From positions 12,530 to 76,529 of IMG/VR virus record IMGVR_UViG_3300021389_000012: 64,000 bases of DNA; one strand, 5' to 3'. The notes below the pieces were generated by a model. The model saw nothing but the letters and a program-made list of their open reading frames with translations, was not told the origin of the DNA and did not search any database. Positions 3 to 1,259 of the stretch are shown piece by piece; position 1 is the first letter of the stretch, and the number at the start of each line of letters is the position of its first letter. The DNA comes from a virus. The translations under genes were made by a program, and so were the position numbers.

Positions 3-140
3 AGAGGCGTACTAAGTTATATGGAAGCAAAAGAACAATTTGACCGTAGAGTATTAGAAACCGATGAATACTACAACGGAATAATTAATGTAAGAGTAGG
101 TAGTTCAAAGATTCTTACAGAACACTTAAAAAAAGGTTGA
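3..140 (+). CDS. 3' end of a T4-like Seg/GIY-YIG-related endonuclease-like protein (5'-truncated by the window)
   Basis: Frame 3 reads RGVLSYMEAKEQFDRRVLETDEYYNGIINVRVGSSKILTEHLKKG*, which resembles the C-terminus (SYxEAKEQF..VL..DEYYNG.INVR) of a conserved GIY-YIG-like family in T4-like phages. The catalytic N-terminus is outside the window. Confidence 0.6.
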   Translation, partial: RGVLSYMEAKEQFDRRVLETDEYYNGIINVRVGSSKILTEHLKKG

Positions 141-165
141 CAACGCATAACTTTCTTGTTATTAT
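137..165 (+). promoter_or_regulatory. sigma70-type promoter
   Basis: TTGACA (137-142), 17 bp spacer, TATTAT (160-165), with an A-tract upstream. It points into a non-coding region. Confidence 0.75.
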
Positions 166-171
166 AACAAA

Positions 172-790
172 AGTAGCGTTTTAACTTTGTTTGAAGCAAA
201 TAATTAAAGCATCAGATAATTAATAGTGTAAAACCAAAACTCACACAGACATAAAGTCAAGCAATTACTGGCACAGTTCAAACCACAATCAGGCTAATAA
301 AAACTAACACAGGCTTCAAAGCTCCGATTGGTCGGCATAGGTCGACTCACCTTGAGGTTACGTAATCACGTGACTAGATACTGGTGTGCTTAATAATGTC
401 AATACACTGATTTGACAAATCAAAAAGATCAAGCTCTACGAACGCTCGTAACTTGAGGATAGTCCAAAAGTCGATACCATGGCTTCGGATGTTTCTGCGT
501 TAGAAAAGCAGTATGTAATAAGGGTACAGCGTAACCGCCCTTCCTAGGTGTTAAACTAGGTTTACTATGGTAATGTGGGTGCTGTTCTATGCCAAGAACT
601 CATTTTACACTTGGCCCGTAGTAGGCTAAGTGTGAATAAAATATCTTGCCAAGTAACCATCTTATAATCACATAAATAATAGTAAGACATAATATTTACA
701 ATAATCACTATTAAACAAATATTAAAAGCGTAAGCAACATACAGTGAACAAAGCGTTAGCTTTGTGAAACTGATGATATCGTAGATATCA
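172..790 (+). ncRNA. candidate large structured ncRNA and/or replication-origin region (family not recognised)
   Basis: About 670 bp with no credible ORF. The core at 324-640 is more GC-rich than its flanks and forms many nested helices with G-U pairs in the + sense. It lies downstream of a sigma70 promoter. Confidence 0.55.
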
Positions 791-815
791 ATTACATGAG
801 AGAACAATAACACAT

Positions 816-1259
816 ATGACGTTGGACGAATTTCAGAGTAAATTTTTAGAGTTTACTGAAAAGCAAGTTGAACCCCTTAAAGATGACGGATATCCAGTAT
901 GTCCGTATGCAAAAAGTGCCAGAATTAAACGGGCGTTGCAGTTCATTGATGGTCGTGATGATTTAACAGTAATGGATACTTTTGATCCTGAAACATATCA
1001 AATGGGTATTGTTTGGTTAGGTGATATTGATGATATTACTCCTGTAGAAAAAATTTGCGAGGAGTACAGAAAAAAGAATCCACATCTCTTATACTTTACT
1101 AGTACAAGACAAAGTGGACATTTTGTTAAAAACTTTACTGATTGTGTGTTTATTCAACGTGCTAACGACTTGTTAGAAAAACGCAAACACTTACATGATA
1201 ATACAAACTATTACGATAGTTGGCCCGAAGATTATTATAAACTAATAATGGGTCACTGA
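816..1259 (+). CDS. hypothetical protein, DUF1415-like (CPYAK motif)
   Basis: 147 aa ORF with VCPYAK, resembling the CP(F/Y)A motif of DUF1415-like proteins. Confidence 0.5.
   Translation: MTLDEFQSKFLEFTEKQVEPLKDDGYPVCPYAKSARIKRALQFIDGRDDLTVMDTFDPETYQMGIVWLGDIDDITPVEKICEEYRKKNPHLLYFTSTRQSGHFVKNFTDCVFIQRANDLLEKRKHLHDNTNYYDSWPEDYYKLIMGH

What the first reader, a model, noticed from the sequence alone, without database searches (positions are those of the whole stretch)
137..660. Independently promoted, multi-domain structured RNA directly behind a GIY-YIG-like nuclease gene
Seen: a sigma70 promoter overlaps the nuclease-like gene's stop and fires into about 670 bp with no ORF. Nested long-range helices are GGCATAG(334-340)/CTATGCC(587-593), TCGACT(342-347)/AGTCGA(469-474) and TACCATGG(475-482)/CTATGGTA(565-572). 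Local hairpins include GGTTACGT/ACGTGACT, GGTGTG/TACACT, TGATTT/AAATCA, TCAAG..TACGA/TCGTA..CTTGA, CTGC/GCAG, CCTAG/CTAGG and TTACACTTGGCC/GGCTAAGTGTGA. Many mismatches resolve as G-U pairs on the + strand only, which points to RNA-level selection. GUGACUA(370-376)/UAGUCC(460-465) also looks like a group I P7 helix. Known: HEARO and omega RNAs sit beside nuclease genes, and large phage ncRNAs such as GOLLD and ROOL exist. Inference: this may be an undescribed large ncRNA, either a partner of the adjacent nuclease or a ribozyme-derived or primer RNA.
Basis: partly seen in the sequence, partly recalled or inferred. Interest (0 to 1): 0.8.

Follow-up and report, generated by a model that had tools for sequence, protein, structure and literature searches.

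The report
Twin-box structured RNA of marine phages
The gene-free 675 bases behind a small nuclease gene of this uncultured marine T4-like phage encode a real, knotted non-coding RNA of about 490 bases with its own early promoter. No RNA catalogue lists it, it carries one 7-letter word twice, its job is unknown, and the nuclease is a replaceable neighbour rather than a shown partner.

Summary
A conserved sigma70 promoter (137-165) overlaps the stop of a SegE-type GIY-YIG gene and faces 675 ORF-free bases. About 42 distinct relatives from marine viral and metagenome contigs, 62-98% identical, show strong compensatory base-pair changes on the + strand. That marks a structured RNA of about 490 nt.

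GGCATAG/CTATGCC, TCGACT/AGTCGA and the "group I P7" fail. New features are a covarying pseudoknot (462-465/487-490) and two identical 7-nt words (590-596 and 647-653) flanking the last hairpin. The word changes between lineages, yet the two copies stay the same.

No Rfam family matches. The 5' domain recurs in divergent RNAs directly behind the same gene in other phages. Further relatives in that slot carry Rfam's orphan Polynucleobacter-1 motif; this window does not.

The nuclease is swappable: nine type-A loci have a PD-(D/E)XK gene instead. A 147-aa ORF is always downstream (62/62).

This scan found the same "twin-box" RNA family before on other phage DNA. Function is unknown. My best guess is a trans-acting folded RNA whose twin words are read twice by one partner.

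The parts
3..140 (+). 3' end of the 150-aa SegE-type GIY-YIG nuclease gene (whole gene G000:C1:12217-12669). It is a neighbour, not shown to be part of the RNA system.
   Evidence: PF19835 E 1e-34; phrog_447 and homing-endonuclease phrogs; ORF list.
137..165 (+). Early-type sigma70 promoter: -35 TTGACA (137-142) and extended -10 TGTTATTAT (157-165). The predicted start is about 172.
   Evidence: 11 of 12 consensus matches with TG. Hexamers and TG are invariant or nearly so in 26 relatives. The transcript start itself is inferred, not mapped.
172..302 (+). AT-rich 5' leader of the RNA, with conserved blocks and a small hairpin GAC(248-250)/GUC(256-258).
   Evidence: Conserved blocks in A1. The hairpin shows CG to UA compensation in 4 sequences.
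303..395 (+). Domain 1: hairpin 330-336/341-347, and helix 348-351/383-386 enclosing hairpin 356-362/369-375. It is shared with the type B and C RNAs of other phages.
   Evidence: Model R1 scores 105 bits here and finds type C loci de novo at E 1e-6 to 1e-4. 8 of 17 pairs change on both sides, 0/500 shuffles.
398..456 (+). Central hairpins: GUCAA/UUGAC (398-402/412-416), or alternatively GAUUU/AAAUC (409-413/417-421), and the bipartite hairpin 429-433,437-440/447-450,452-456.
   Evidence: helices 4-6; GUCAA/UUGAC is invariant. Which of the two small hairpins forms is unresolved.
462..490 (+). Pseudoknot helix GUCC(462-465)/GGAU(487-490). It crosses the 475-482/565-572 helix.
   Evidence: 100% paired; 2 pairs with changes on both sides (UA 24 / CG 18; CG 30 / UA 8 / AU 4) (helix 7). 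First seen in the helix scan.
475..572 (+). Long-range helix 475-482/565-572 closing three hairpins (495-498/508-511, 520-525/537-542, 543-547/556-560). This stretch holds the most conserved single-stranded blocks.
   Evidence: helices 8-11: 4, 0, 2 and 4 pairs with changes on both sides, all 100% paired. Invariant blocks.
584..599 (+). Hairpin presenting word 1 (UGCCAAG, 590-596) in its loop and 3' strand.
   Evidence: Pairs 586-597, 587-596 and 588-595 are mostly kept (helix 13). Word list.
604..636 (+). Terminal 13-bp hairpin lying between the two words.
   Evidence: 96% of cells paired, little variation. Its 3' strand and the linker to word 2 resemble those of types B and D.
647..653 (+). 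Word 2 (UGCCAAG), identical to word 1 and 57 nt downstream of it. The probable 3' region of the RNA ends near 660.
   Evidence: The two 7-mers are identical in 31 of 42 distinct sequences across six different words. Spacing is 55-67 nt. The 3' end is not mapped.
660..727 (+). AT-rich spacer with a T4-late-promoter-like CATAAATA (671-678).
   Evidence: GC 0.24-0.30. ATAAATA is conserved in A1. Promoter function is inferred from the T4 late consensus TATAAATA (own knowledge).
728..790 (+). Three small hairpins ahead of the 147-aa ORF: GC-GUAA-GC (728-735); 742-745,748-754/759-765,769-772; and 774-780/784-790.
   Evidence: RNAalifold pairs with many changes on both sides, for example GC 15 / UA 8 / AU 3, and the helix scan. 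Whether they belong to the early RNA or to the late mRNA leader is unknown.
816..1259 (+). 147-aa ORF of unknown function. It is always downstream of type-A RNAs.
   Evidence: 62 of 62 loci with room. No Pfam family. AlphaFold pLDDT 81 with no convincing fold match.

Best explanation
This is a stand-alone gene for a pseudoknotted non-coding RNA of about 490 nt (about 172 to about 660, + strand).

SHOWN
- Its fold is under RNA-level selection.
- It has a conserved, strong sigma70-type promoter, so host RNA polymerase should make it early in infection.
- It occupies a fixed slot in a lineage of marine T4-like phages, between the gp47-gp46-small-nuclease operon and the convergent gp26 baseplate gene.
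- It is the promoter-bearing branch ("type A") of a wider RNA family. Other branches start directly behind the same nuclease gene, end in a terminator hairpin, and in some cases carry Rfam's Polynucleobacter-1 motif as an extra 5' module.
- All branches share a 3' module in which one 7-8-nt word occurs twice, before and after the last hairpin. The word differs between lineages, but its two copies stay (near-)identical.

INFERRED
- The RNA acts in trans as a folded particle.
- The conserved core supplies the architecture. The twin words, one displayed in a hairpin loop and one in the single-stranded tail, are a lineage-specific element read twice by the same partner. That partner would be a dimeric protein or two copies of a short complementary nucleic acid outside the locus.
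- The nuclease gene is a homing-type lodger beside a conserved RNA gene, not its partner.
For: - Covariation: 24 of 80 pairs change on both sides in 42 distinct sequences, 0/500 shuffles reach this, and slid controls collapse. Domain 1: 8 of 17 pairs.
- Strand: G-U pairs fall on the + strand only.
- The promoter is conserved.
- No conserved ORF; word spacing of 55-67 nt is not in multiples of three.
- No Rfam match and no tRNA or tmRNA.
- Same synteny in all types.
- R1 finds domain 1 in types A and B and, de novo, in type C.
- RF01718 scores 108 and 100 bits behind the same gene in L104 and L110, with twin AGATAAT words and a terminator hairpin.
- Twin words are identical in 31 of 42 type-A sequences over six different words. 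Other types carry ACATGAAG, ACATAAAG, ACATGATG or AGATAATG, each twice.
- The nuclease is swapped for PF24608 in 9 loci.
- Marine metatranscriptome assemblies hold the stretch.
Against: - No transcript ends are mapped. The RNA-library data are contigs, and some are tens of kb long, so DNA carry-over is possible.
- No partner for the twin words was found. There is no complementary or third copy within about 4 kb in any locus, and the word is not enriched in the window.
- Word 2 forms at best a 2-3-bp hairpin (helix 15).
- Type A has no terminator and runs into an AT-rich tract. That also fits a primer or a leader role.
- The central domain of type A is not recognisably homologous to types B-D at covariance-model level. 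The family link therefore rests on domain 1, synteny and the 3' module as judged by eye.
Confidence: 0.5

Rival explanations
1. RNA-primed replication origin. The early promoter makes a folded pre-primer, as ColE1 RNA II does or as the T4 oriF/oriG R-loop transcripts do. Its 3' end would hybridise in the AT-rich tract (660-727) beside the small hairpins and prime leading-strand synthesis.
For: The layout is a strong early promoter, a structured RNA without a terminator, a tract of 24-30% GC, and then hairpins. The position is next to the recombination genes gp46/47 and baseplate gene 26, as T4 oriF is next to uvsY-25-26 (own knowledge of the T4 map). Earlier scan notes made the same guess.
Against: Types B, C and D have no promoter of their own and end in a terminator hairpin right after word 2. 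Cumulative GC skew follows gene orientation and shows no feature here. Nothing in this idea explains the twin words.
Confidence: 0.12
2. Cis-acting leader. The RNA is a very long 5' untranslated region, or a riboswitch-like sensor, that controls the 147-aa ORF downstream.
For: The ORF follows the type-A RNA in 62 of 62 loci. No terminator lies between them. Covarying hairpins sit just ahead of the start codon.
Against: A late-promoter-like CATAAATA lies between the RNA and the ORF. In types B-D the RNA is followed by a terminator and by unrelated genes. The ORF occurs only in the type-A clade, so the linkage may be plain synteny.
Confidence: 0.12
3. Nuclease partner. The RNA guides or regulates the small nuclease encoded beside it, as omega/HEARO RNAs do for IscB or TnpB, with the twin words acting as guides.
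For: A small nuclease gene always precedes the type-A RNA: GIY-YIG in 59 of 68 loci, PD-(D/E)XK in the rest. In types B-D the RNA starts within about 10-50 nt of the GIY-YIG stop. The 150-aa protein is a bare catalytic domain without a DNA-binding domain.
Against: Two unrelated nuclease folds share the slot. 45 of the 80 closest GIY-YIG homologues, including the cultured Melnitz phage, have no such RNA. No sequence matching the words was found nearby.
Confidence: 0.05
4. Ribozyme or intron relic. The RNA is a degenerate group I intron around a GIY-YIG homing gene, or a self-processing ribozyme acting at the two words.
For: There are many invariant unpaired nucleotides and a pseudoknot. GAUAGUCC resembles the group I S element (own knowledge). 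T4 introns do carry GIY-YIG genes.
Against: The P7-like pairing fails covariation. The helix order does not fit P3-P9. There is no Intron_gpI hit, and GIR1 reaches only E 9. The flanking genes gp46 and the 147-aa ORF are intact, so there are no exons. No internal guide complementary to the words exists.
Confidence: 0.05

Closest known systems
Polynucleobacter-1 RNA motif (Rfam RF01718; Weinberg et al. 2010, PMC2864571)
   Same: RNAs that score 100-108 bits for RF01718 sit behind the same GIY-YIG gene (about 80% identical protein) in the same gp47-gp46 ... gp26 slot in L104 and L110. They continue into a 3' module with a word used twice around a hairpin, as here.
   Different: This window has no RF01718 match even at E 10. 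In its place are a promoter and an AT-rich leader. RF01718 covers only the first 141 nt of those relatives, and no function is published for it.
GOLLD and ROOL RNAs (large ornate RNAs of phages and prophages; Rfam)
   Same: Large size (hundreds of nt), multi-domain pseudoknotted fold, phage-borne, many conserved unpaired nucleotides, function unknown.
   Different: No sequence or structure match in Rfam. This RNA is smaller. It has the twin-word module, which those RNAs are not known to have (own knowledge).
HEARO / omega RNAs of IscB and TnpB
   Same: A structured RNA encoded next to a small nuclease gene on a mobile or viral genome.
   Different: The neighbouring proteins are GIY-YIG or PD-(D/E)XK, not RuvC/HNH. 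The neighbour is interchangeable. There is no Rfam HEARO hit and no guide-target match.
ColE1 RNA II and T4 oriF/oriG origin transcripts
   Same: A promoter-driven RNA that runs into an AT-rich tract. ColE1 RNA II is likewise about 550 nt long and must fold correctly (own knowledge).
   Different: No evidence of initiation here. Sister types end in terminators. T4 origin transcripts are not known to need conserved structure (own knowledge).
Group I introns with GIY-YIG homing genes (T4 td / I-TevI)
   Same: A GIY-YIG gene next to a pseudoknotted RNA in a T4-like phage.
   Different: There are no exons, the P7 pairing is not supported, and no Intron_gpI match appears.

Membership tests
Polynucleobacter-1 (RF01718) | Score at or above the family's gathering threshold (37 bits) with the Rfam covariance model | tested here: not met
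   No match at E 10 or below in the own genome or in window 130-820 with lax filters. The positive controls L104 and L110 score 108 and 100 bits.
Polynucleobacter-1 (RF01718) | Same genomic slot and same 3' continuation as RF01718-bearing RNAs | tested here: met
   In L104 and L110 the order is gp46, GIY-YIG, RF01718, word AGATAAT, hairpin, word AGATAAT, terminator hairpin, with gp26 on the opposite strand after it in L104; L110 ends before that gene. The resemblance of the 3' module was judged by eye, not by a model.
Twin-box RNA (unpublished label from earlier notes of this scan) | One short word present twice, flanking the last hairpin, identical within an RNA but differing between lineages | tested here: met
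   590-596 equals 647-653. The words are identical in 31 of 42 distinct type-A sequences over six different words. Other words, each present twice, occur in types B-E.
Twin-box RNA (unpublished label from earlier notes of this scan) | Covariation-supported pseudoknotted core | tested here: met
   Helices 462-465/487-490 and 475-482/565-572 cross, and both covary.
Twin-box RNA (unpublished label from earlier notes of this scan) | Homology of the 5' domain to other subtypes | tested here: met
   R1, built from types A and B, finds type C loci at E 1e-6 to 1e-4 directly behind the GIY-YIG gene.
Twin-box RNA (unpublished label from earlier notes of this scan) | Homology of the central domain to other subtypes | tested here: not met
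   R2 (window 456-576) finds nothing in types B-D, with filters on or off.
Group I intron | P3-P7 pseudoknot with a covarying P7, flanking exons, and an Rfam Intron_gpI match | tested here: not met
   The P7-like helix is 79% paired with no support. No Rfam hit. The neighbouring genes are intact.
tmRNA (including the two-piece forms known in related Melnitz-like phages, PMC9004378) | tRNA-like domain and tag reading frame detectable by ARAGORN or Rfam | tested here: not met
   ARAGORN finds none in the whole window. No tmRNA family appears in Rfam scans.
HEARO / omega RNA | Encoded with IscB or TnpB, and an Rfam HEARO match | tested here: not met
   The neighbour is GIY-YIG or PD-(D/E)XK. No Rfam hit.
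RNA-primed origin (ColE1 RNA II / T4 oriF type) | Replication starts where the transcript ends | not testable with these tools
   Only the layout (promoter, RNA, AT-rich tract) is seen. GC skew is uninformative.

The most novel reading that the evidence does not exclude
The twin words are programmable specificity elements. On this reading the RNA is the guide or bridging component of a so far unknown RNA-directed DNA-cutting or DNA-joining system. Its protein part would be the interchangeable small nuclease always encoded beside it, or the gp46/47 recombination nuclease. The word is read twice because the target is two-fold, for example two ends or both strands.
Probability: 0.04. Interest if true: 0.9.

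Novelty: new variant of a known kind. Interest (0 to 1): 0.6.

Why it matters
Large, intricately folded RNAs with conserved unpaired nucleotides are rare. Those solved so far turned out to be ribozymes, riboswitches, guides or self-assembling particles.

This one is widespread in uncultured marine T4-like phages and is made from a strong early promoter. It also carries an unusual feature: a short word that changes between lineages but is always kept in two identical copies. That implies a specific reader that has not been identified.

Working out its role could reveal a new way in which abundant ocean phages take over, or defend themselves in, their hosts. It would also give a function to the orphan Polynucleobacter-1 motif, catalogued in 2010.

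Tried and rejected
- blastn of types A, B and D against 50,697 phage records: no match, so no cultured phage with this RNA was found. Melnitz has the GIY-YIG gene but no RF01718 and, in the 8.4-kb region around that gene, no R1 match.
- An exact core pattern in 185,579 prokaryote genomes: none.
- A 14-base RF01718-derived pattern in the same collection: 120+ chance hits. Only one weak nhmmer match (L222, E 0.006) was seen and it was not followed. The earlier claim of bacterial islands next to recombinases was therefore not tested.
- Model R2 of the type-A central domain against types B-D: nothing.
- A search for a sequence complementary to the words, or a third copy, inside the RNA and within about 4 kb: none consistent. 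The word is not enriched in the window.
- Coding or translational-bypass reading of the twin words: no conserved frame, and spacing is not in threes.
- GC skew as an origin signal: it follows gene orientation only.
- Read laying: only assembled contigs were available, some very long, so there are no ends, no strand and no reliable level. One run has a contig of depth 24 over 9-572 against 2-5 further downstream, which is a weak hint at most.
- Fold of the 147-aa ORF: pLDDT 81; Foldseek best E 0.1; VIA best Z 6.0. No assignment. Atlas neighbours are all viral hypothetical proteins.
- A generic count of repeated 8-mers is noisy in AT-rich DNA (0.9 per shuffled sequence), so only the specific CTC-word / TCT-word pairs are used.

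Full report
WHERE IT LIES

The window is bases 12530-76529 of a 76.5-kb IMG/VR virus record. The gene order around the finding is:
- gp47-like and gp46-like (Rad50-type) genes;
- a 56-codon ORF;
- a 150-aa protein;
- the 675-base gap;
- a 147-aa ORF;
- a gp26-like baseplate hub gene on the other strand.

The 150-aa protein is a bare SegE-type GIY-YIG domain (PF19835, E 1e-34). Its closest cultured relative, at 82% identity, is in the OM43 phage Melnitz. More distant relatives are found in many cyanophages.

Promoter. A TTGACA-17-TATTAT promoter with an upstream TG sits at 137-165, and the gene's TGA stop lies inside the -35 hexamer.

Relatives. Protein-anchored searches and one exact DNA pattern retrieved relatives only from viral and marine metagenome contigs. 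None came from 185,579 prokaryote genomes or from 50,697 phage records. After removing duplicates there are 42 distinct cores, 62-98% identical to the window. At the far end of that range the 147-aa protein next door is only 41-49% identical. The non-coding stretch is therefore at least as constrained as its coding neighbour.

Conservation and structure.
- The promoter hexamers and the TG are invariant or nearly so.
- RNAalifold on 26 sequences gave 108 pairs, 28 of them with compensatory changes.
- A hand-checked structure on 42 sequences has 24 of 80 pairs with changes on both sides. None of 500 shuffles reaches the observed values, and the signal collapses when partners are slid by 1-3 columns.
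- Many pairs are G-U on the + strand. The selected molecule is therefore a + strand RNA, in line with the promoter.
- No frame is conserved.

Supported:
- the long-range helix 475-482/565-572;
- hairpin 356-362/369-375;
- the bipartite hairpin 429-456;
- CCUAG/CUAGG;
- GAUUU/AAAUC.

Compatible but almost invariant: CUGC/GCAG and the 604-616/624-636 hairpin.

Rejected:
- GGCAUAG/CUAUGCC pairs in only 55% of cells.
- UCGACU/AGUCGA never compensates. Its 5' strand belongs to hairpin 330-336/341-347, which does covary.
- The "group I P7" (GACUA/UAGUC) is broken in up to 18 sequences at a single pair.

GGUGUG/UACACU is compatible but competes with CACC/GGUG. That helix shows a double compensation (CGCU/AGCG) in a type B relative.

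Two features were missed:
- A pseudoknot. GUCC(462-465)/GGAU(487-490) changes to ACCC/GGGU, GCAC/GUGU and GCUC/GAGU, and it crosses the 475-482/565-572 helix.
- A word used twice. UGCCAAG stands at 590-596, in the loop and 3' strand of a small hairpin. It stands again at 647-653, in the tail after the terminal hairpin.

Across the 42 sequences the word is UGCCAAG, UGUCAAG, UGUGAAG, GGUGAAG, UGUAAA(G/A) or GGGAAAU. The two copies are identical in 31 sequences and differ at one or two positions in the rest.

WHAT IS IT RELATED TO?

Catalogues. Rfam 15 gives nothing at E 1 over 3 kb, and nothing beyond noise at E 10 over the region alone. ARAGORN finds no tRNA or tmRNA. That matters because Melnitz-like phages are known to encode two-piece tmRNAs (PMC9004378).

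Domain 1. A profile of the core found an 85-nt match directly behind the GIY-YIG gene in other contigs. A covariance model of this "domain 1", built from types A and B (R1), then found a third group de novo. This type C scores E 1e-6 to 1e-4, again starting at the gene's stop.

Shared 3' module. Aligning these RNAs shows that all end the same way. The order is CUC-word, hairpin, AAUCU-word, then a terminator hairpin. The word is ACAUGAAG, ACAUAAAG or ACAUGAUG, each kept in two identical copies.

The Polynucleobacter-1 lead. Earlier notes of this scan call this family the "twin-box" RNA and point to Rfam's Polynucleobacter-1 motif. I tested that lead.
- RF01718 does not match this genome.
- It does match at 108 and 100 bits about 50 nt behind the same GIY-YIG gene in L104 and L110. 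The RNA there continues into the same 3' module, with AGAUAAU twice and a terminator hairpin.

Limits of the family link.
- A model of the type-A central domain (R2) does not detect types B-D.
- The family link therefore rests on domain 1 (types A-C), on the identical gp47-gp46-nuclease-RNA-...-gp26 slot, and on the 3' module as judged by eye.
- A further group (L054, L071, L111) has yet another 5' domain. The 5' end of the family thus looks modular.

IS THE NUCLEASE A PARTNER?

I used only loci found by the DNA pattern, so they are unbiased with respect to neighbours.
- 59 of 68 with enough upstream DNA have the GIY-YIG gene.
- The other nine, from the most divergent clade, have a 181-aa PF24608 PD-(D/E)XK nuclease in exactly that position.

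In the other direction, 35 of the 80 closest GIY-YIG homologues are followed by an RNA of the family (16 type A, 17 type B/C-like, 2 type D). The other 45 are not. In Melnitz, small ORFs follow the gene instead.

Two unrelated nuclease folds in one slot is the usual picture for free-standing homing-type genes lodging beside a conserved sequence (own knowledge of T-even seg and mob genes). It argues against a dedicated RNA-protein pair, but it does not exclude a looser functional tie.

The 147-aa ORF, by contrast, follows the type-A RNA in 62 of 62 loci.
- It occurs only in this clade.
- It is preceded by a late-promoter-like CATAAATA and three covarying hairpins.
- It has no recognisable family or fold.

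HOW DOES IT MOST LIKELY WORK?

Shown:
- a folded + strand RNA;
- an early-type promoter;
- vertical inheritance at a fixed slot;
- a conserved core with many invariant unpaired blocks;
- a lineage-specific word kept in two copies.

Not shown: transcript ends, abundance, or any partner. Marine metatranscriptome assemblies do hold the stretch. These are contigs only, however, and some are tens of kb long, so they prove neither transcription nor ends.

No sequence complementary to the words, and no third copy, exists within the RNA or within about 4 kb. The word is not enriched in the window. The copies are too short for gene conversion, and their identity is kept while the word itself turns over. 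The most economical inference is selection by one reader that meets the word twice.

I therefore favour a trans-acting folded RNA with the twin words as its specificity element. My confidence is about 0.5 for the whole statement and well above 0.9 for "real structured RNA gene".

Rivals:
- An RNA-primed origin. In its favour are the promoter, the missing terminator and the AT-rich tract. Against it are the terminators in the sister types and an uninformative skew.
- A leader of the 147-aa ORF. In its favour is the perfect linkage. Against it are the late promoter in between and the unrelated downstream genes in the other types.
- A nuclease guide.
- A ribozyme or intron relic.

NOVELTY

Nothing published describes this RNA. 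The only paper that mentions Polynucleobacter-1 is the 2010 catalogue. This scan has met the family repeatedly on other phage DNA.

This window adds three things:
- a branch with its own promoter and without the catalogued module;
- a second nuclease family in the neighbouring slot;
- a perfectly linked downstream ORF.

I rate it a new variant of a known but unexplained kind.

Noticed in passing
window 816-1259: A 147-aa ORF with invariant CP(Y/F)A and SGHF motifs follows every type-A RNA (62/62) and occurs only in this phage clade. It has no Pfam family. The AlphaFold model (pLDDT 81) has no convincing structural match (best Z 6.0).
   Followed up: partly
window 728-790: Three small hairpins (GC-GUAA-GC, 742-772 and 774-790) with many compensatory changes lie between a late-promoter-like CATAAATA (671-678) and the 147-aa ORF. 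Similar GAGCGNNAGCGAAA-plus-hairpin elements follow the terminator in types B-D. They may be a separate late-mRNA leader or terminator element.
   Followed up: partly
L173:3537-4082 and the same slot in L149, L167, L180, L183, L190: In the most divergent type-A clade, a 181-aa PF24608 (PDDEXK_15) nuclease replaces the GIY-YIG gene in exactly the same position between gp46 and the RNA.
   Followed up: yes
L054, L057, L071, L072, L111 (downstream of the GIY-YIG gene): A further subtype has a different, roughly 200-nt 5' domain but the same 3' module, with twin words ACATAAAG, ACATGATG or ACATGAA. The 5' end of the family looks modular.
   Followed up: partly
G000:C1:12217-12669 and GenBank phage records: Homologues of this GIY-YIG protein (phrog_447) are annotated as "NAD synthetase" in many cyanophage and rhizobiophage records. 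This conflicts with the clear SegE GIY-YIG domain and is probably a propagated mis-annotation.
   Followed up: no
window 246-259: The leader hairpin AGACAUAAAGUCAA matches the first 15 positions of Rfam NsiR4 (cyanobacterial sRNA) letter for letter. The overall hit is noise (E 6.5).
   Followed up: no
L001:1046-1216 (window -454 to -284): A 56-codon ORF overlaps both the end of gp46 and the start of the GIY-YIG gene. It has no family, and I did not check whether it is conserved.
   Followed up: no
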